A stretch of DNA of 64,000 nt from positions 30,225 to 94,224 of IMG/VR virus record IMGVR_UViG_3300031715_000003; one strand, written 5' to 3'. The position numbers and the translations under genes were made by a program. This document shows, piece after piece, positions 626 to 52,399 of the stretch. The DNA is from a virus. Positions within the stretch are counted from its first letter, which is position 1, and each line of letters starts with the position of its first letter. The notes beneath the pieces are model-generated. The model was not told where the DNA came from and did not search any database. It saw only the letters and a program-made list of their open reading frames with translations.

Positions 626-1077
626 TTCATCGGACTCCTCTCCATCTGAATCTCGTTTCGTGCGGCGCAGAGCCGCGTGTACACGGGGAGTTCCGCGCCG
701 TCTCCGGGTTGGTACTCCCCGCAAATCTCCGTGAACAGCGCATCGCTTCCACTCAACCACTCGAGATGCTGGCGAATCTCTTGAAACCGTTCTCCCCAGC
801 TCGAAACAGCGTATTGCAGAACCCCGGTTGTGGGCTTGCGCTGGCGGGGAGAACGGGCCTGACGGACAACGGGCTCCCTCCAGCGCTTGCGCTTGGCATC
901 CCATACGGGCTCGGGGCGGATACTGGGGTCCAGGATGCTGGCCAGCCGCCAATCCGCAGTCCACCACTCGCGCGCCTTCTTGTCCCAACGGAAGCCAGCG
1001 GATTTGACTTGTGCGTTTTGAGACATCGATGCGCACGCCACGTAGCGTTCTCCCCGGTGGATTACGGGAATCATCAC
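622..1077 (-). CDS. Hypothetical protein, DUF5710-like motif
   Basis: QVKSAGFRWDKKAREWW motif; GTGA coupling. Confidence 0.6.
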   Translation of the reverse strand: MMIPVIHRGERYVACASMSQNAQVKSAGFRWDKKAREWWTADWRLASILDPSIRPEPVWDAKRKRWREPVVRQARSPRQRKPTTGVLQYAVSSWGERFQEIRQHLEWLSGSDALFTEICGEYQPGDGAELPVYTRLCAARNEIQMERSPMK

Positions 1078-4897: not shown

Positions 4898-4958
4898 GAG
4901 CCTCCTATTGCTCATTGGGGGAGCACGTTAGCGGACTCCCCCAAGGCGCACCAGGAAA
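4898..4958 (-). promoter_or_regulatory. Structured 5' leader element E3
   Basis: TTTCCTGGTGCGC-hairpin-TGAGCAATAGGAGGCTC. Confidence 0.8.
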
Positions 4959-5611: not shown

Positions 5612-5676
5612 GAGCCTCCTATTGCTCAGCCAGGGGAGAAGACCGAAAGCGTTCTCCCCTGAAGCGCACTAGGAAA
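5612..5676 (-). promoter_or_regulatory. Structured 5' leader element E4
   Basis: TTTCCTAGTGCGC-hairpin-TGAGCAATAGGAGGCTC. Confidence 0.8.
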
Positions 5677-7191: not shown

Positions 7192-7232
7192 GCCGGCTTG
7201 GATCGCGCGGCGGGCCTGGCTTCCGGCTTCGG

Positions 7233-7299
7233 CCCCTCCCTTCCTTCCCGACCACCCCACCCCACAGTACCCTCGCCCCCCCCACCCCCCACCCCCCCC
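7233..7299. repeat. C-tract cluster (G-quadruplex-forming potential on minus strand)
   Basis: Multiple C4-C8 runs in an intergenic gap. Confidence 0.8.
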
Positions 7300-7380
7300 T
7301 TCGATTTAATTCACCGATCAGCACGAAGTTGATTCTGGAAAGAAGGCCACCGGCCTAAGAATCAACGATATAAAATATAG

Positions 7381-9280: not shown

Positions 9281-9985
9281 AATGCTGCGACTGCGGTGCC
9301 ATCAACGTTCCGGGCAACCATCTCGGCACAGTACAGCGTTGCCGCCGCTGTCTCGACCGGCTACTGATCCGGACGCTTCGGCCCCACGTTCTTAAATCTC
9401 CGCTGCTGCGAAAATGGAACCAGGAGATTGAGGCAGTTCTGCCAAAACGGCTCTCCCGTGAAGAAAAGGAGGGGAGAGCGATATTGATCATGAAGGCTAG
9501 CAATGGAACCTGAACAAAGACTCCCTGCGATAAACGGGACCAATGCTGGAGAATGGAACCACTCTGAGGTAGAGTACAATGCCTGCCAGAGCACCAATGG
9601 ACCGATGAAGGATTGCCCGTCGTGCGGTGGGACTGGTAAGATTTCAGAAAGCGCACTACCATGAAAAGGCTCTTCTCCATCACCGGATGGGAGTACAAGT
9701 GGATCTTTGAAATTCGGCGTGGACCCTTCCGATCGTTTCACCTCATGATCAGACGTGAACTAAAGAGGTGGCTATGACGGTACTCCTCTCACGTCCTTAT
9801 CGTCCCGCCATGGCTTGTGAAGCGTGTTGCTTCGGGGGGAGTACGCACGCGGTCTGGTGCAGCAAAGCCCAAAGTTTCATGGAGGCGTGGGATGCTGTTA
9901 CGTGGCTCCCTGGATCGCCACGTGCCGCCAGAGAAGCCGCTATGCACCCGGCGTCTCACTCTCCACCGAAAGTGAACTCCCCCCA

Positions 9986-10564
9986 ATGAATACTGAACAG
10001 CAAACTCCAGAAGCCACATGCGATGAAATCGTAGCGGCCGTGTGCGATCTCCCCGAAATACCCAAGATAGGATGGACCGTCGCAATACGGCGGCGACTTC
10101 CATTCGATGCTCTCGGGAAGTGTCCCATGACCCAGCAAATTCCAGTCGTCCTCGAACCAGAACTCTGGGCCAAGGTCATCGCCTGCATCATGATGAATCC
10201 GAAAATCAAAGCTACGGCCAGATGGCTGAATCCTACGTCCGCCTCTAAACATTCGGGCCGAACTCCTCCCGTAACATTGGCCGACGCCATAAATCTAGCG
10301 CGGATGCTCGAGAAGTCTTTCCACGGGTGGCTGGCCGGAGTCTACGGCTCGGTTCTCAATGGGGAGGGCCGCGACGGAGATATCCTATTGACTCCGTGGC
10401 GAGAGGTTGCGATACCGCTGGTAGAGTTCGTGGAGAGCGCCACCAGCATGAAGATGTTGAAATCTGAGGCAGGGTTGATGGCGCACTCATATCTTATGAT
10501 GGATCGGGACGGCAGGATCTTCGACCTTCGCTGGACGTATCCGTACTCTCCGAGGTACCAATGA
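9986..10564 (+). CDS. Hypothetical protein
   Basis: MNTEQQ start overlapping upstream stop. Confidence 0.6.
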   Translation: MNTEQQTPEATCDEIVAAVCDLPEIPKIGWTVAIRRRLPFDALGKCPMTQQIPVVLEPELWAKVIACIMMNPKIKATARWLNPTSASKHSGRTPPVTLADAINLARMLEKSFHGWLAGVYGSVLNGEGRDGDILLTPWREVAIPLVEFVESATSMKMLKSEAGLMAHSYLMMDRDGRIFDLRWTYPYSPRYQ

Positions 10565-10887
10565 GTCCCAAAGAATCAACTCCCCTGATGGAGGCGTGGG
10601 CCAAAGAACTGGCGCGCCAGATGCTGGAGCCACGCGATGGCGACTCTTCCGAATCCGTTCTCCTACGAGTCGCGATCGCGCTCGTACAGGCTCGAGCAAA
10701 AGAAGCGCGGCATCTGGCCGGCGCATTCACCATCAAGAGCACCGACCCACATAATCCCCTCTGGGAATTTCACCGCTCCCTCGCGCGGCACCTAACGGAC
10801 CGCGAGCATCTACTGGAGCAGTTCGCCCTGGACATGGCTGGCTTTAAAGAGGAGACGGCGATCGAACTCCCCGGAATGCTTCAATAA
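10561..10887 (+). CDS. Hypothetical protein
   Basis: ATGA coupling, GAGG SD. Confidence 0.6.
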   Translation: MSPKESTPLMEAWAKELARQMLEPRDGDSSESVLLRVAIALVQARAKEARHLAGAFTIKSTDPHNPLWEFHRSLARHLTDREHLLEQFALDMAGFKEETAIELPGMLQ

Positions 10888-10905
10888 CAGACATAATTTT
10901 CTGCC

Positions 10906-10935
10906 TTGACTTTGTAGGGTATTCCGCCGTAAGAT
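10906..10935 (+). promoter_or_regulatory. Promoter of orphan pentamer-array RNA G
   Basis: TTGACT-N18-TAAGAT directly before array. Confidence 0.7.
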
Positions 10936-11056
10936 GGCCTTGCATCTCTCGTCGGGTCTGCTCCTGGCATGTCATCACGCAGCGCTACACGGCAACGCGA
11001 CGCAACGCAAGGAAATCGCACTGGGGGATAACAAACCAGAAATCGAACTCCCCCAG
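10936..11056 (+). ncRNA. Orphan pentamer-array RNA G (15 units) plus 3' hairpin
   Basis: ggcct tgcat ctctc gtcgg gtctg ctcct ggcat gtcat cacgc agcgc tacac ggcaa cgcga cgcaa cgcaa gg; C at position 3 in all; CTGGGGGA...TCCCCCAG hairpin. Confidence 0.75.
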
Positions 11057-11104
11057 GGCTAAATGGTTCAGTGATTCCGATAAAATGCAAGCAGGGAGAA
11101 CACC

Positions 11105-11272
11105 ATGGCGATCCTATCCTTTATACTTCTGGTTTTCGCATTTGTGCTTTTCGTTCTGGCGGGCTTGGGCCTCCCCAGTCCTCCAGTGCCGCGCGGCAAC
11201 CTGATCGGCTGGGGGCTGGCGTGTTGGGTTCTAGCGGAGATCCTAATGCACACCCCGCCATTGATTCACTGA
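11105..11272 (+). CDS. Small two-TM membrane protein (55 aa, not in ORF track)
   Basis: GGGAG SD; MAILSFILLVFAFVLFVLAG...GWGLACWVLAEIL. Confidence 0.7.
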   Translation: MAILSFILLVFAFVLFVLAGLGLPSPPVPRGNLIGWGLACWVLAEILMHTPPLIH

Positions 11273-11383
11273 ACGAACGGACGCGATACAATAGCGGACA
11301 TCGGGTCGGGCTCCGAAAGGAACCCGAAAATCAAACCCAACAATTTACCCTGTAAAAGGGGAGATCAACAACTGAAGCGGTAG

Positions 11384-11410
11384 AGAGCCGGGGGCGACCT
11401 CGGCTCTTTC
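11384..11410 (+). terminator. Intrinsic terminator-like hairpin
   Basis: AGAGCCGGGG-GCGA-CCTCGGCTCT-TTC. Confidence 0.55.
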
Positions 11411-11485
11411 CGTTATCCCCACCGAAACGTTACAATCTTGTGCATTGCAATCCATAAGATCTTGCGCTACACTTGTCCTTAAAGA

Positions 11486-11707
11486 ATGCCAGAAGATCTG
11501 CCGGTTTTCGACGAACGCGTGGAGTTTCAGGGCACAACATACCTGCGGGAGTTAACATCCGATGCTCTCCGAACTCTCGGCAGGATGGGCAAAGTAGTGA
11601 TCCTTAGAGATGGGACGGAGCGATTGTCTGCCCTCATTCCTTACGATCAATACGTCAAGCTTAATGAGATGGCCTTCGGTAAATCGAAGGAAGTTAAGAG
11701 CCAATGA
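11486..11707 (+). CDS. Phd/YefM-like antitoxin-fold protein
   Basis: TTYLRE...VVILRDG...ALIPYDQY pattern; own promoter TTGCAA...TACACT. Confidence 0.55.
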   Translation: MPEDLPVFDERVEFQGTTYLRELTSDALRTLGRMGKVVILRDGTERLSALIPYDQYVKLNEMAFGKSKEVKSQ

Positions 11708-11738: not shown

Positions 11739-12518
11739 ATGGAAGTTAAGATAACAGGAAAGCGGCTCGGGAAGCGTGCTCCTCGCTTGGATCCACGCAC
11801 CCCACAGCTTAAGAACTATATCCGAGTTACGCCTCCCATTCCGCCTCCCGAGGTCAGTTGGATCACCAAGGCAACCGCTGCGGAACCATGGCCCATGCTA
11901 GCCAACGACACGCTTGGGGATTGTGTTGAGGCCGCCCAACTCCATATGATCGAGCAGTGGATCTACTACGGATCTGGGACGGTCCAACAGGCCCACAACA
12001 ACGATGCCATCAAGCTATACGAAGCCGAGGGCGGATACGTGCCGGGGGATCCCAATACGGACAACGGAACCGACATGCTGACGGCCCTTAACTATTGGAA
12101 AAACACCGGTGCCAAAATAGGGACCGTAGTTCATAAGATCGCGGGATACGTGAAGGTGGATCCCACCAACGACACCGAAGTCCAGATGGCCATCTGGGTA
12201 TTCGGAAATCTCTTCACCGGGATACAACTGCCTTTGTCGGCCCAAGTCCAGACGTCTTGGACTGTACCGGCCGGCGGACCGTACGGGGATGGGTCACCGG
12301 GGTCGTGGGGGGGGCATTGCGTCCCGATAATGGCCCGCTCTCCCGAAAGCTGCACCTGCATTACGTGGGGTTCGGTACTGAAGATGAGCCACAATTTCTT
12401 CAGCGATTACGTCGACGAGTGCTACGCAGTTCTGGCCCCCGATTGGCTCAATGCCGCTTCCGTATCACCCGGTGGTCTTGATCTGGCGCAACTACAGGCA
12501 GACCTCGCGGCACTTTAG
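11739..12518 (+). CDS. Papain-like cysteine peptidase
   Basis: NDTLGDCV (Cys), GGHCV (His), ITWG. Confidence 0.7.
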   Translation: MEVKITGKRLGKRAPRLDPRTPQLKNYIRVTPPIPPPEVSWITKATAAEPWPMLANDTLGDCVEAAQLHMIEQWIYYGSGTVQQAHNNDAIKLYEAEGGYVPGDPNTDNGTDMLTALNYWKNTGAKIGTVVHKIAGYVKVDPTNDTEVQMAIWVFGNLFTGIQLPLSAQVQTSWTVPAGGPYGDGSPGSWGGHCVPIMARSPESCTCITWGSVLKMSHNFFSDYVDECYAVLAPDWLNAASVSPGGLDLAQLQADLAAL

Positions 12519-14970: not shown

Positions 14971-15358
14971 TTGGACAGCGCCGCTCGAATTCGCCACCAG
15001 AGAAGATCGGGCCATTTGGCCCAACGTGAAACTGCTCCACACGCTCTCCGGGGATTATCTACCAAGAGTTGTCGTAGCGGCCGATAGCAAAGGTAGGGAT
15101 GCTGTCCTGTTTTTTTCTGAAGACGGAACGGGTGACCGCGGGACTCTGCGCAATGTTCCGGGCAACGCTCTGGGTAGGGCTGCGTTTTTCGGCTACCATA
15201 AACAGCGGCAGCGCGCGTTCGATGATTATAAGATAGCGGTCGATTGGGCTGAAGCCAACCAGAATCTTTGGATCGCCGCAGCCTGGGCCGCCATCAAAGA
15301 ATACGAAAGTTCTGAGGGGAGTTCAGAAGCAGACTCCCCCGCAAAGGAGAAAACATGA
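14960..15358 (+). CDS. Hypothetical protein
   Basis: MPIDWTAPLE start, SD. Confidence 0.65.
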   Translation: MPIDWTAPLEFATREDRAIWPNVKLLHTLSGDYLPRVVVAADSKGRDAVLFFSEDGTGDRGTLRNVPGNALGRAAFFGYHKQRQRAFDDYKIAVDWAEANQNLWIAAAWAAIKEYESSEGSSEADSPAKEKT

Positions 15359-20723: not shown

Positions 20724-20762
20724 TGGGGGGAGTACGGCGACAGACGTTCTCCCCCCGTTTTT
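20724..20762. terminator. Hairpin built from two copies of the dispersed motif; ends terL and RNA H
   Basis: GGGGGGAGTACG...CGTTCTCCCCCC-GTTTTT. Confidence 0.6.
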
Positions 20763-20844
20763 CCTTGCGTTGCGATGCTATGCGCCGACGAGATTTGCGG
20801 AGACGAGATACGCCAGGCTCCGACGAGCGCCGACATGCCGTGAC
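20763..20844 (-). ncRNA. Orphan pentamer-array RNA H (16 units)
   Basis: gtcac ggcat gtcgg cgctc gtcgg agcct ggcgt atctc gtctc cgcaa atctc gtcgg cgcat agcat cgcaa cgcaa gg; TGgTATAGT extended -10 at 20854-20862. Confidence 0.75.
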
Positions 20845-20896
20845 TTCCTTACGACTATACCAAGATTATGGTATCTTCTGAAGCAGGAGATTCCTG

Positions 20897-50137: not shown

Positions 50138-50147
50138 ATAAAACTCC

Positions 50148-50184: not shown

Positions 50185-50313
50185 ATGAAGGTGAAGGCCA
50201 GTACGGTCAAGGTTAAACTGGACGGGATAAAGTGCGGACACTGTGGGCATGCCTGGAAACCGCGCACAGAAAGTGGCGCGAAGAAGTGCCCACGATGCCA
50301 GCACAAGCTTTGA
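50185..50313 (+). CDS. 42-aa zinc-ribbon protein (not in ORF track)
   Basis: KCGHCGHAWKPR...KKCPRCQ. Confidence 0.75.
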   Translation: MKVKASTVKVKLDGIKCGHCGHAWKPRTESGAKKCPRCQHKL

Positions 50314-50314
50314 G

Positions 50315-50404
50315 GGCGACGCAACGCGTGTCAACGCGCTACAATGCGCGGCGGCTCACGTCTGCGTAAGGCGAGTCTGGTCTGCTCCCGGCATCGCAAC
50401 GTAA
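50315..50404 (+). ncRNA. Pentamer array A (18 units)
   Basis: ggcga cgcaa cgcgt gtcaa ... ggcat cgcaa cgtaa then AGGAG SD; pyrimidine at position 3 in all, C in 16. Confidence 0.8.
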
Positions 50405-50416
50405 AGGAGAAATGGA

Positions 50417-50980
50417 ATGATTTCGGCAAAATGCCATCTTGAATCGATTTCGCAGTACTCCCAGAGCAAAGCTCATCGAGTTCCGCGCAATCAAAATGAA
50501 TCTTATGACCAATGGGAAGAGCGGACGTGGCGCGAACGCCTGCATGTGTCCGAGGATGGCCACATTTTTATTCCTCCCACTGCCATCAAAAACGCGCTCT
50601 CGGAGGCGGCTCAGTACCTCTCGATGAAGATTCCGGGGAAGCGCAACGCCACCTACACCAAGCGCTTCGTCTCGGGGGTTCTGGTGGCCGATCCCATAAC
50701 GCTGCCGATCACGGTCGATGAGGTCAAGTGCGAATGGCTTTTCCTGCCGGCCGATGGGAAGCGCGGTTCTGGAACGCGCGTCAACAAATGCCTGCCCCTG
50801 ATTGATCGGTGGTCGGGCGATGTACAGGTATTCATTCTGGACGACGAGATCAGCAAGGAGGTCTTCGAGAAGCACATGGATGTTGCGGGATCCTTGATCG
50901 GAGTTGGCCGGTTCCGCCCCTCGAAGAATGGATACTACGGTCGGTTCAAAGCTACCGTTAGGTCCTGGGAGTCGCAGTGA
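50417..50980 (+). CDS. Stand-alone Cas7/RAMP-like protein
   Basis: N-terminal strand CHLESISQY, FIPPTAIKNALSEAA (cf. RAMP IPgSslKGalR), C-terminal Gly loop GSLIGVGRFRPSKNGYYGRF; AAGGAG SD. Confidence 0.7.
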   Translation: MISAKCHLESISQYSQSKAHRVPRNQNESYDQWEERTWRERLHVSEDGHIFIPPTAIKNALSEAAQYLSMKIPGKRNATYTKRFVSGVLVADPITLPITVDEVKCEWLFLPADGKRGSGTRVNKCLPLIDRWSGDVQVFILDDEISKEVFEKHMDVAGSLIGVGRFRPSKNGYYGRFKATVRSWESQ

Positions 50981-50986
50981 AATGAT

Positions 50987-51134
50987 CTCGCGGCACGTCT
51001 TGGCGAGTCGCCTTCTGGCCAGTCCAGGCGCATCATGCTCTCGTCGTGGCCTGTCACCGCCTGTCGCTCAGCTAGGCACGTCTTGTCATGGCAGGTCTGT
51101 TCGCGTCTAGTCTTGGCACCGCATCGCATCTCAA
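50987..51134 (+). ncRNA. Pentamer array B (about 29 units, two phase slips)
   Basis: ggcac gtctt ggcga gtcgc ... ggcac cgcat cgcat ctcaa GGAG. Confidence 0.8.
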
Positions 51135-51144
51135 GGAGAATAAA

Positions 51145-51348
51145 ATGGCAAAGGAATCTAAGATATCCAAACTCATCGAGGAACTAGCAGAAGAAATGGC
51201 AGAGGATCTGGTGAAGAGTTTGACGATGGAGTTTAAAAAGATTTCGCCGGGAGCGAACAGGCTGGCAAATGGAAAGCGTAGGAGCACGCCAGAGGCTTCT
51301 GGCCCAAAGAAACCTGGTTGGAGCATAAGGGGTACGAAGAGGAAATGA
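51145..51348 (+). CDS. 67-aa hypothetical protein in Cas7-like module
   Basis: AAGGAGAATAAAATG; acidic helix plus basic tail. Confidence 0.7.
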   Translation: MAKESKISKLIEELAEEMAEDLVKSLTMEFKKISPGANRLANGKRRSTPEASGPKKPGWSIRGTKRK

Positions 51349-51349
51349 T

Positions 51350-51439
51350 TTCATGGCTCGTCCGGGCCCGGCATGGCAACGCTTGTCCTGGCAGGACTCG
51401 GCTCGTCTAGTCGTATCGTGGTATGGCACGGCATCGCAA
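51350..51439 (+). ncRNA. Pentamer array C (18 units)
   Basis: ttcat ggctc gtccg ggccc ggcat ggcaa cgctt gtcct ggcag gactc ggctc gtcta gtcgt atcgt ggtat ggcac ggcat cgcaa. Confidence 0.85.
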
Positions 51440-51449
51440 GGAGAATAAA

Positions 51450-51971
51450 ATGGCAGTAGAAACTAAAAACGGTAAAGATCCAAAGCGTCCTATTGGTACG
51501 ATCTCGATCGACACACGGGTCGTTTACGATCGTCTCAAGGCGACGCAGATCGGGGAGACCGTACTGTATGCCGATTTGACCAAGCTAATCGGTCGCGATA
51601 TCCGCGGCGTGGCTTCATGGGTACTCCAGAGCGCACGGCGCAAAGCCCTGCACGACGATCAACTGGTGTTCGGATCGGTTCGCAACGAGGGAGTACGGCG
51701 TCTGGCAGACACGGAGATCGTCGACACCGGGCACGACGCCATCACTCAGATCCACAGGCGGTCGGTTCGGTCCCTCAGGAAGCTGGCCTCAGTCCAGGAT
51801 TTCAGCGCTCTCCCCCCGCAAGATAAAGTGCGACACAATGCCTACGCTTCGCTGCTCTCCATATCGGCGCATGCCACCCGGGATAAGCAGGTCAAGAAGA
51901 TCGAACAAGCAGTGGAAAAGTCTCAGGCAGCTCTGGCGGTCCAGAGGACGCTGGACGCGCTCAAGGAATAA
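51450..51971 (+). CDS. Basic 173-aa protein, winged-helix-like N-terminus, partner of Cas7-like gene
   Basis: GETVLYADLTKLIGRD...SARR...SVRNEGVRRL; same 16-nt RBS as 51145. Confidence 0.75.
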   Translation: MAVETKNGKDPKRPIGTISIDTRVVYDRLKATQIGETVLYADLTKLIGRDIRGVASWVLQSARRKALHDDQLVFGSVRNEGVRRLADTEIVDTGHDAITQIHRRSVRSLRKLASVQDFSALPPQDKVRHNAYASLLSISAHATRDKQVKKIEQAVEKSQAALAVQRTLDALKE

Positions 51972-51974
51972 CAT

Positions 51975-52149
51975 GGCTCGTCGTGGCGAGTCTTCGCCTA
52001 GCAGGTCTTGTCATGACGAATCACCGCACGTCCATGCGAGTCCAGTCCGCGCTCCTCGATGCATATCGTGGCGATTCGTGGCGGCTCCTAGCATCGCCTG
52101 TCGGTGCACGGCATCTCCCGGCGAGTCCTGTCCCGGCAACGCAACGCAA
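51975..52149 (+). ncRNA. Pentamer array D (35 units)
   Basis: C at position 3 in 35/35 units; GTC 10, GGC 7, CGC 6; ends ggcaa cgcaa cgcaa gg. Confidence 0.85.
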
Positions 52150-52177
52150 GGTATTAATGTGGTCTTTTATAACGTTC

Positions 52178-52277
52178 TTCTCGGCGTGTCTGGTCAGAGC
52201 ACGGCAGGTCTGCGCCCGGCATTGCTCGTCTGCGCGCCACGTGGCGTATCAACTCCGCTCTAAGCGCGGCATCGCAA
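52178..52277 (+). ncRNA. Pentamer array E (20 units)
   Basis: C at position 3 in 20/20; ends ggcat cgcaa gg; AT-rich linkers both sides. Confidence 0.85.
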
Positions 52278-52322
52278 GGTTCTTTATCTCCCCAAAACTA
52301 CAGTAAAATGGTCTACATATTC

Positions 52323-52399
52323 AGCGTGGCGCTGGGCCCGTCATGGCTTAGCGAGACAACGCAAGGCTGGTCTGGTCTCGGCAACGCCGGGCAACGCAT
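52323..52399 (+). ncRNA. Pentamer array F (2 + 13 units)
   Basis: ggccc gtcat ggctt agcga gacaa cgcaa ggctg gtctg gtctc ggcaa cgccg ggcaa cgcat. Confidence 0.75.

What the first reader, a model, noticed from the sequence alone, without database searches (positions are those of the whole stretch)
10906..11056. Orphan guide-like RNA gene G, 39 kb from the Cas7-like module
Seen: TTGACT-N18-TAAGAT promoter, immediately followed by 15 in-phase pentamers with C at position 3 and the same CGCAACGCAAGG end as array D, then a CTGGGGGA/TCCCCCAG hairpin. No credible ORF. Inference: an independent trans-acting guide cassette, showing the arrays are RNA genes rather than microsatellites or UTR filler. Reverse-complement decode: TT TT TC TT GT GC GC AT AT AG CA CC GA AT AG.
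Basis: partly seen in the sequence, partly recalled or inferred. Interest (0 to 1): 0.82.

Follow-up and report, generated by a model that had tools for sequence, protein, structure and literature searches.

The report
Stand-alone VIPR guide-RNA gene
This short five-base repeat is most likely a stand-alone guide-RNA gene for the phage's own VIPR system, a CRISPR-like DNA-silencing system first published in 2026. It is a further example of a known kind, and its target could not be found.

Summary
At 10906-11056 there is a sigma-70-like promoter and 15 in-phase pentamers with C at position 3 (G or T at position 2 in 13 of 15). The array ends in CGCAACGCAAGG, which also closes array D and the antisense array H. 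An 8-bp G/C hairpin follows.

The same phage encodes a small Cas7-fold protein (50417-50980) that matches SUSP1 Vipr (profile E 6e-10). Relatives of that protein in about 40 other contigs are flanked by xxC-NN arrays ending in CAAGG. A model built only from those foreign arrays finds G as the third-best hit in the window (E about 8e-4).

G is therefore a vrRNA gene of a VIPR system (bioRxiv 2026.04.26.720920). It lies 39 kb from vipr. Its scaffold is relaxed to S-K-C, its guide is unique, and no start codon follows its handle. The hairpin belongs to a phage-wide family and is not a VIPR-specific tail.

No target was found in the phage itself, in relatives, or in the IMG/VR, metagenome and reference-genome collections. 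The "guide beside its recoded target" pattern was not supported here. Expression could not be tested.

This scan has noted stand-alone VIPR guides before, on other DNA.

The parts
10906..10935 (+). Sigma-70-like promoter, TTGACT-18-TAAGAT. The predicted start is near 10942, inside pentamer 2.
   Evidence: 9 of 12 consensus matches. CCTTGACTT occurs exactly twice in the window, here and at 50146 at the head of the VIPR locus.
10936..11010 (+). vrRNA repeat tract of 15 pentamers, scaffold S-K-C plus variable NN. The guide dinucleotides are CT AT TC GG TG CT AT AT GC GC AC AA GA AA AA.
   Evidence: The position profile equals that of arrays A-F. The guide is not a copy of any other array.
11001..11012 (+). 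Conserved 3' handle CGCAACGCAAGG, which overlaps the last two pentamers.
   Evidence: three exact copies: G, D, H. Relatives' arrays end in CAAGG. The handle pattern recovers 15 Vipr-bearing loci among 46 IMG/VR hits. Model R1 hits 10967-11014 at E 8e-4.
11021..11056 (+). 8-bp G/C hairpin (CTGGGGGA, 20-nt loop, TCCCCCAG) with no U-tract. Probably a 3' end-protecting or terminating stem.
   Evidence: The 3' arm carries the dispersed motif GAACTCCCC (93 copies of G[AT][AT]CTCCCC in the genome). The hairpin family is enriched in the genome.
50417..50980 (+). vipr gene. It encodes a small Cas7-fold RAMP protein, the presumed partner of RNA G.
   Evidence: SUSP1 Vipr (PDB 36pp): E 0.015 with the single sequence and 6e-10 with a 20-sequence profile. 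phrog_4652 at 1e-11. AlphaFold model with pLDDT 91, best folds type VII Cas7 and Csm3.
50315..52399 (+). VIPR locus arrays A-F (10, 14, 14, 36, 20 and 14 pentamers), interleaved with vipr, a 67-aa ORF and the accessory gene.
20724..20862 (-). Sister cassette H: promoter, 16 pentamers, the same handle, and a GGGGGGAG/CTCCCCCC hairpin.
   Evidence: Model R1 gives E 0.15.

Best explanation
G is a stand-alone (distal) vrRNA gene of this phage's own VIPR system.

Shown by the sequence: a promoter-like site, then 15 pentamers of the form [S][K]C-NN, then the handle CGCAACGCAAGG shared with the arrays at the vipr locus, then a G/C hairpin. No start codon follows the handle.

Inferred by homology with the SUSP1 system: host RNA polymerase makes an RNA of roughly 70 nt (to the handle) to 115 nt (to the hairpin). 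One Vipr protomer binds each pentamer. The protomers sequester the scaffold bases and present the two variable bases. The filament then reads double-stranded DNA as NN-x-NN-x, skipping one base per unit, which suits a coding sequence with the skips on wobble positions. It stays bound and blocks transcription of a gene in a competing mobile element or in the host. About 9-12 of the 15 dinucleotides are likely to be true guide. The last two or three (AA) belong to the conserved handle, and the first one or two may lie upstream of the transcription start.
For: 1. Protein partner. Gene 50417-50980 matches SUSP1 Vipr (36pp) at E 6e-10 with a clade profile. It folds as a Cas7-type RAMP: pLDDT 91, Foldseek E 2e-7 to type VII Cas7.

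2. Grammar. G's position profile is the same as that of the 108 pentamers flanking vipr: C 100% at position 3, G/T at position 2, G/C-rich position 1, variable positions 4-5.

3. Handle. CGCAACGCAAGG is shared with D and H. In 25 or more foreign loci retrieved by Vipr protein alone, arrays end in CAAGG. In the other direction, a DNA pattern made of the handle plus period-5 C's retrieved 15 Vipr-bearing loci among 46 hits.

4. Independent model. R1 was built from 11 vipr-adjacent array ends of other genomes. It ranks G third in the 64-kb window at E 8e-4, and 12 of its 13 hits lie in pentamer arrays.

5. Autonomy. G has its own promoter-like site, a unique guide and no start codon after the handle, whereas in-locus handles double as the Shine-Dalgarno of the next gene.

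6. Self-avoidance. There is no match above control anywhere in the phage's own 94 kb (19 of 30, equal to the control mean).

7. Published mechanism and the existence of orphan vrRNAs: bioRxiv 10.64898/2026.04.26.720920.720927 and 2026.10.15.759431.
Against: No target was found in any collection.

The promoter is only a 9-of-12 consensus match. The upstream operon has no terminator, so G could also be read through as part of a longer RNA.

The scaffold departs from the published GGY. Position 1 is not conserved, and two units have A at position 2 (CAC, TAC), which is rare (6%) in the in-locus arrays.

No sister phage was available to show that the cassette is conserved. In four relatives' contigs, arrays occur only at the vipr locus.

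The hairpin is a generic element of this phage.
Confidence: 0.75

Rival explanations
1. G is a Vipr-binding RNA without a DNA target of its own. It could be a decoy or titrator that tunes how much Vipr is free for the other guides, or a decaying copy of an array unit that is no longer used.
For: No target was found in any search. Two off-consensus scaffold units (CAC, TAC) are present. There is no evidence of conservation in relatives.
Against: All 15 units keep the invariant C. The handle is intact and the promoter-like site is present. Missing targets are expected for an uncultured phage whose host and rivals are not in the collections. The published work also left some guides unassigned.
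Confidence: 0.1
2. G is a cis-acting leader. Its promoter drives the downstream small membrane-protein gene (11105-11272) and later genes. The array and hairpin would then be a Vipr-binding or structural element that regulates that mRNA, as the in-locus arrays sit directly on the ribosome-binding sites of vipr and its neighbours.
For: The hairpin has no U-tract and no terminator is predicted, so read-through into 11105 is plausible. In the VIPR locus and in relatives the handle CGCAAGG is itself the Shine-Dalgarno of the next gene.
Against: In G the handle is 90 nt from the next start codon, which has its own GGGAGA Shine-Dalgarno. The sister cassette H has the same build but faces no gene at all. 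Cis and trans roles are not mutually exclusive.
Confidence: 0.1
3. G is a chance periodicity or a microsatellite with no RNA function.
For: One of 200 shuffles reached a run of 15 period-5 C's.
Against: The window holds eight such arrays, all on the sense strand of their context. They share the position-2 bias and the handle, and they are linked to a Vipr gene here and in about 40 other contigs.
Confidence: 0.01

Closest known systems
VIPR systems: Vipr RAMP protein plus vrRNA. The type II system of Escherichia phage SUSP1 is the characterised example (bioRxiv 10.64898/2026.04.26.720920 and .720927; PDB 36pp).
   Same: A small Cas7-like protein is encoded in a phage. The guide RNAs are built of 9-16 five-base units, each with a fixed trinucleotide ending in a pyrimidine and two hypervariable bases, followed by a conserved 3' end. 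The arrays flank vipr and an accessory gene.
   Different: The scaffold is relaxed from GGY to S-K-C, with only the C invariant. The G-loop reads GVGRFRP where SUSP1 has GVGDWRP. The residue that reads G1 in SUSP1 (D177) is replaced, which fits the loss of G1 conservation. The 3' end is a short handle (CGCAAGG) rather than a 40-nt pseudoknot tail. Vipr identity to SUSP1 is detectable only by profile. G lies 39 kb from the locus.
Solo (orphan) vrRNAs of F5 satellites and of VIPR-null SUSP1-family phages (bioRxiv 10.64898/2026.10.15.759431).
   Same: A single vrRNA gene stands alone, away from vipr and vap, and keeps the family's repeat grammar and 3' end.
   Different: The published solos sit in elements that lack vipr and borrow another element's protein. 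G sits in a phage that has a complete VIPR locus, so it is an extra, dispersed guide of the phage's own system. No REP-like decoy, vipr or vrRNA target was found for G.
CRISPR crRNA with a Cas7 backbone (class 1).
   Same: A RAMP-fold protein polymerises on a guide RNA and flips out bases periodically (fold match).
   Different: There is no repeat-spacer array, no cas genes and no Rfam CRISPR repeat. The period is 5 nt with only 2 bases read per unit, where class 1 reads 5 of every 6.

Membership tests
VIPR vrRNA | Tandem 5-nt units (published range 9-16), each with a fixed trinucleotide ending in a pyrimidine and two hypervariable bases. | tested here: met
   G has 15 units with C at position 3 in all 15 and G/T at position 2 in 13. 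Positions 4-5 are variable. The deviation is that position 1 is not G. The discovery paper lists related consensus forms such as YNNNG.
VIPR vrRNA | A Vipr (minimal RAMP) protein is available in the same element. | tested here: met
   Gene 50417-50980: profile E 6e-10 to SUSP1 Vipr 36pp and a Cas7-type fold at pLDDT 91.
VIPR vrRNA | The conserved 3' end is shared with the other vrRNAs of the same system or clade. | tested here: met
   CGCAACGCAAGG is shared with D and H. The CAAGG end is clade-wide. Model R1, built from foreign arrays, hits G at E 8e-4. No pseudoknot tail as in SUSP1 was found.
VIPR vrRNA | Expressed as a discrete small RNA of about 100 nt that co-purifies with Vipr. | not testable with these tools
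Only a promoter-like site and a 3' hairpin speak for it.
VIPR vrRNA | A natural target matches the NN dinucleotides under the 1-nt skip rule. | tested here: inconclusive
   The best matches are at control level. Own genome: 19 of 30. Relatives' VIPR loci: 20 of 30. IMG/VR with three 8-unit seeds: at most 23 of 30. Metagenomes with a 10-unit seed: two hits, as many as chance predicts. Reference genomes: none.
Solo vrRNA in the sense of the October 2026 preprint | Encoded in an element that lacks vipr and vap. | tested here: not met
   The same 94-kb genome carries vipr and six in-locus arrays. G is a dispersed guide of a VIPR-positive phage.
CRISPR array / crRNA | Direct repeats of 25-40 nt separated by unique spacers, with cas genes. 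| tested here: not met
   The sequence shows only 5-nt units. There is no Rfam match at gathering or E<=1 thresholds.

The most novel reading that the evidence does not exclude
G and H may not be weapons against rival phages. They could be guides transcribed by host polymerase from dispersed sigma-70 promoters, outside the VIPR locus that sits among the tail genes. They would then direct Vipr to the host chromosome or to the phage's own timing circuit, making VIPR a programmable regulator of the infection programme. The short handle plus a generic phage hairpin would make such cassettes easy to spawn anywhere in the genome.
Probability: 0.1. Interest if true: 0.6.

Novelty: new member of a known kind. 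Interest (0 to 1): 0.3.

Why it matters
The finding adds a documented case of a VIPR-positive phage that keeps extra guide genes far from the vipr locus, each with its own promoter. It comes from a clade whose scaffold is relaxed to S-K-C and whose 3' end is a 7-12 nt handle. This is useful for building vrRNA callers that do not depend on GGY or on proximity to vipr. It also raises the question of whether dispersed guides are expressed at different times from the locus. It does not change what is known about how VIPR works.

Tried and rejected
My first reading, before I found the literature, was a TRAP-like ring protein binding periodic sites in 5' leaders, with G as a sponge RNA. I dropped it once the VIPR papers and the Vipr homology were in hand.

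Searches for known families or near relatives:
- Rfam found nothing, for the whole window at gathering threshold and for 10850-11150 at E<=1.
- blastn of 10500-11500 against cultured phages found nothing.

Self-targeting and skip rules. Skips of 0, 1 and 2 give only control-level matches in the own genome. Skip 3 merely finds the array itself.

Target searches for G:
- Loci of relatives and whole contigs of five relatives with up to 3 mismatches gave nothing.
- IMG/VR seeds over units 1-8, 6-13 and 8-15 gave 9, 14 and 42 hits. None extended beyond chance.
- A metagenome seed over units 3-12 gave 2 hits. One lies in codon register in a FabZ-like gene (L034, 23 of 30) and one is out of register (L035). 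That is about the number chance predicts.
- A reference-genome seed over units 4-13 gave 0 hits.
- One seed for H in IMG/VR gave 0 hits.

The 'guide beside its recoded target' lead came from earlier notes of this scan.
- The best local match is 19 of 30 at 12135, in gene 11739-12518 and in codon register.
- However, 54 of 500 shuffled guides do as well, and six homologues match worse at that site (13-15 of 30).
- A peptide-like resemblance at 10166 in gene 9824-10564 (17 of 30) could not be followed up, because that protein has no homologue in IMG/VR or in the 5.8-billion-protein collection.

Synteny. Homologues of 11739 and 12765 exist in six IMG/VR contigs, but in a different order and without G's immediate neighbours. 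Presence or absence at this locus is therefore untestable.

Host. It could not be inferred. Vipr relatives occur in MAGs of many phyla, and the terminase is at most 42% identical to any cultured phage.

Promoter similarity between G and the head of the VIPR locus. They share CCTTGACTT and CCGTA, but the spacing differs by 4 nt, so I treat this as weak.

RNA fold of G as a whole is not unusual (z -1.75). H gives z -0.23.

Full report
**What is there**

Reading 10600-11400 shows gene 10561-10887 ending at TAA, followed 19 nt later by TTGACT (10906-10911). An 18-nt spacer and TAAGAT (10930-10935) follow. Directly after that come fifteen pentamers, each with C at its third base (10936-11010). The tract ends in CGCAACGCAAGG (11001-11012).

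Nine bases on, CTGGGGGA (11021-11028) and TCCCCCAG (11049-11056) form an 8-bp stem around a 20-nt loop. The next gene is a 55-aa hydrophobic protein that starts at 11105 behind its own GGGAGA ribosome-binding site.

The consensus scan finds the promoter at 9 of 12 matches, and finds no intrinsic terminator.

**Is it more than chance?**

A scan for period-5 C runs finds eight long arrays in the window:
- G, with 15 units.
- H, on the minus strand at 20765-20844, with 16 units.
- Six between 50315 and 52399, with 10, 14, 14, 36, 20 and 14 units.

Everything else in the window stops at 9. Runs of 15 are expected about 7e-4 times per window, and 1 of 200 shuffles reached 15. The run alone is therefore already unlikely.

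The shared features settle it. Position 2 is G or T in 13 of 15 units of G, against 95% in the 108 in-locus units. Position 1 is G/C-rich. Positions 4-5 are close to uniform. The 12-mer handle occurs exactly three times in the window, at the ends of G, D and H.

**What family it belongs to**

I checked this in the papers and in the sequence.

The discovery preprint (10.64898/2026.04.26.720920) describes phage-borne loci with these parts:
- a minimal RAMP protein, Vipr;
- an accessory gene;
- vrRNAs of about 100 nt made of 9-16 GGY-NN units followed by a conserved 3' tail.

The NN bases read double-stranded DNA with one base skipped per unit, and binding silences transcription. The structural preprint (.720927) shows one protomer per unit. 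G1 is read by H17 and D177, G2 by R138 and W178, and Y3 sits in a pocket that includes R179.

Here, the protein of 50417-50980 hits SUSP1 Vipr (PDB 36pp) at E 0.015 alone. A profile of 20 clade members raises that to 6e-10. It also hits phrog_4652 at 1e-11. Its AlphaFold model (pLDDT 91) matches type VII Cas7, Csm3 and Cmr subunits.

In the alignment to SUSP1 the G-loop reads GVGRFRP against GVGDWRP. The Y3 arginine is kept, the G2-stacking aromatic is conservatively replaced, and the G1-reading aspartate is lost. This fits an array grammar in which only the C, and partly the second base, are fixed. That last step is my inference.

**Link between the array grammar and Vipr across genomes**

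Vipr relatives were retrieved by protein alone: four from IMG/VR and 21 from reference MAGs of many phyla. They are flanked by xxC-NN arrays with GGC, CGC, CTC or GAC scaffolds, and in several of these loci the arrays end in CAAGG.

In the other direction, I searched IMG/VR with a DNA pattern of four period-5 C's plus G's handle. It returned 46 loci, 15 of which carry a Vipr homologue (39-49% identical) in the flanks.

I then built a sequence model (R1) from 11 array ends of loci found by protein only, with none from this phage. Searched over the whole window on both strands without filters, it gives 13 hits, of which 12 lie in pentamer arrays. G (10967-11014) ranks third at E about 8e-4, and H scores 0.15. 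The tool warns that these E-values are rough.

**What is particular about G**

- In the VIPR locus, and in most relatives, the handle CGCAAGG runs into AAGGAG and a start codon 6-8 nt later, so each array sits on the ribosome-binding site of the next gene. G and H have no start codon after the handle. They have a promoter-like site at the 5' end and a G/C hairpin at the 3' end.
- G's fifteen dinucleotides are not a copy of any other array's. The best overlap is 57% over 7 units.
- The hairpin is not a VIPR-specific tail. Its 3' arm carries GAACTCCCC, one of 93 copies of G[AT][AT]CTCCCC in the 94-kb genome. Stems of the GGGAG/CTCCC type with 7 or more pairs occur 20 times, against 1-6 in shuffles. 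I read it as a generic element of this phage that ends or protects RNAs and was reused here. That is inference.
- The last two or three units (AA dinucleotides) are part of the conserved end shared by G, H and D, so they probably do not guide. The predicted transcription start (about 10942) falls in unit 2. That leaves roughly 9-12 informative units.

**Target search**

I applied the published rule (NN-x-NN, both strands) with shuffled-guide controls. Results for G were as follows.

| Searched | Result |
|---|---|
| Phage's own 94 kb | 19 of 30, equal to the control mean |
| Relatives' VIPR loci | 20 of 30 against a control maximum of 20 |
| IMG/VR, three exact 8-unit seeds | 65 hits, none extending beyond chance (maximum 23 of 30) |
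| Metagenome collection, 10-unit seed | 2 hits, about the number expected by chance |
| Reference genomes, 10-unit seed | none |

One of the two metagenome hits is in codon register in a FabZ-like gene of a fatty-acid-type cluster (L034). I record it but do not claim it.

Earlier notes of this scan on other genomes report lone VIPR guides sitting next to a gene whose rival alleles they spell, so I tested that lead for G. The best local match (19 of 30 at 12135, in codon register in gene 11739-12518) is reached by 54 of 500 shuffled guides. Six homologues of that gene match worse at the same codons. A second site, in gene 9824-10564, could not be followed because that protein has no detectable homologue. 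The pattern is therefore not supported for G with the data available.

As a check on the rule itself, array C's best matches fall in the accessory gene, both in this phage and in three relatives.

**What could not be done**

- No sister phage is available. G's immediate neighbours are ORFans, and more distant homologues are not syntenic, so conservation of the cassette is unknown.
- In four relatives' contigs, arrays occur only at the vipr locus. Three of those contigs are fragments (25-27% complete); the fourth is 89% complete.
- The host is unknown.

**Verdict**

G is very probably a dispersed guide-RNA gene of the phage's own VIPR system.

The system, its gapped code and orphan guides have been in the literature since 2026, and this scan has already met lone VIPR guides on other DNA. 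What is modestly new here:
- the guide's location in a VIPR-positive phage, 39 kb from vipr, with its own promoter;
- the relaxed S-K-C scaffold;
- the very short handle.

I rate it a new member of a known kind, with low to moderate interest.

Noticed in passing
whole genome; e.g. window 685-720, 2024-2050, 4915-4944, 5631-5661, 15316-15339, 20725-20756: The motif G[AT][AT]CTCCCC occurs 93 times in 94 kb. GGGAG/CTCCC inverted repeats with stems of 7 or more pairs occur 20 times against 1-6 in shuffles, mostly in the early region. The hairpins of both G and H use it. Its function is unknown; it may be an RNA end or stability element, or a protein-binding site.
   Followed up: partly
window 50417-50980 and loci L001-L054 (alignment A2): The Vipr G-loop residue aligned to SUSP1 D177 tracks the scaffold triplet of the neighbouring arrays. 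GxGRFRP goes with GGC/CGC arrays. GIG[F/V]FRP goes with GAC arrays (L040, L041, L043, L045). T at that site goes with CTC, GAC or CGC. The samples are few and not independent.
   Followed up: partly
window 50395-50420, 51125-51148, 51430-51453: The vrRNA handle CGCAAGG runs into AAGGAG and an ATG 6-8 nt later, so each in-locus array ends on the ribosome-binding site of vipr, of a 67-aa ORF (51145-51348) and of the accessory gene (51450-51971). Relatives show the same arrangement. This suggests coupling between guide maturation or Vipr binding and translation of the locus genes.
   Followed up: no
window 50185-50313: A 42-aa ORF with two CxxC pairs (zinc-ribbon-like) lies between the promoter-like site at 50146 and array A. 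It has no family match and was not examined further.
   Followed up: no
window 7231-7304: A long C-rich tract (CCCCA/CCCCCC runs of about 70 nt) lies in an intergenic stretch.
   Followed up: no
L034:659-702 (metagenome contig Ga0315287_10288891): Ten consecutive guide units of G match a FabZ-like dehydratase gene in codon register (peptide TSGWLIIAATK), within an ACP-dehydratase-ketosynthase cluster. The match is 23 of 30 overall. The number of such hits equals the chance expectation, so no claim is made.
   Followed up: partly
window 51350-51419 versus L038, L041, L050: Array C's best 1-nt-skip matches (20-21 of 28) fall on the minus strand downstream of vipr in three relatives. Its best match in the own genome falls in the accessory gene at about 51560-51600. 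This is consistent with a guide aimed at rival accessory genes.
   Followed up: partly
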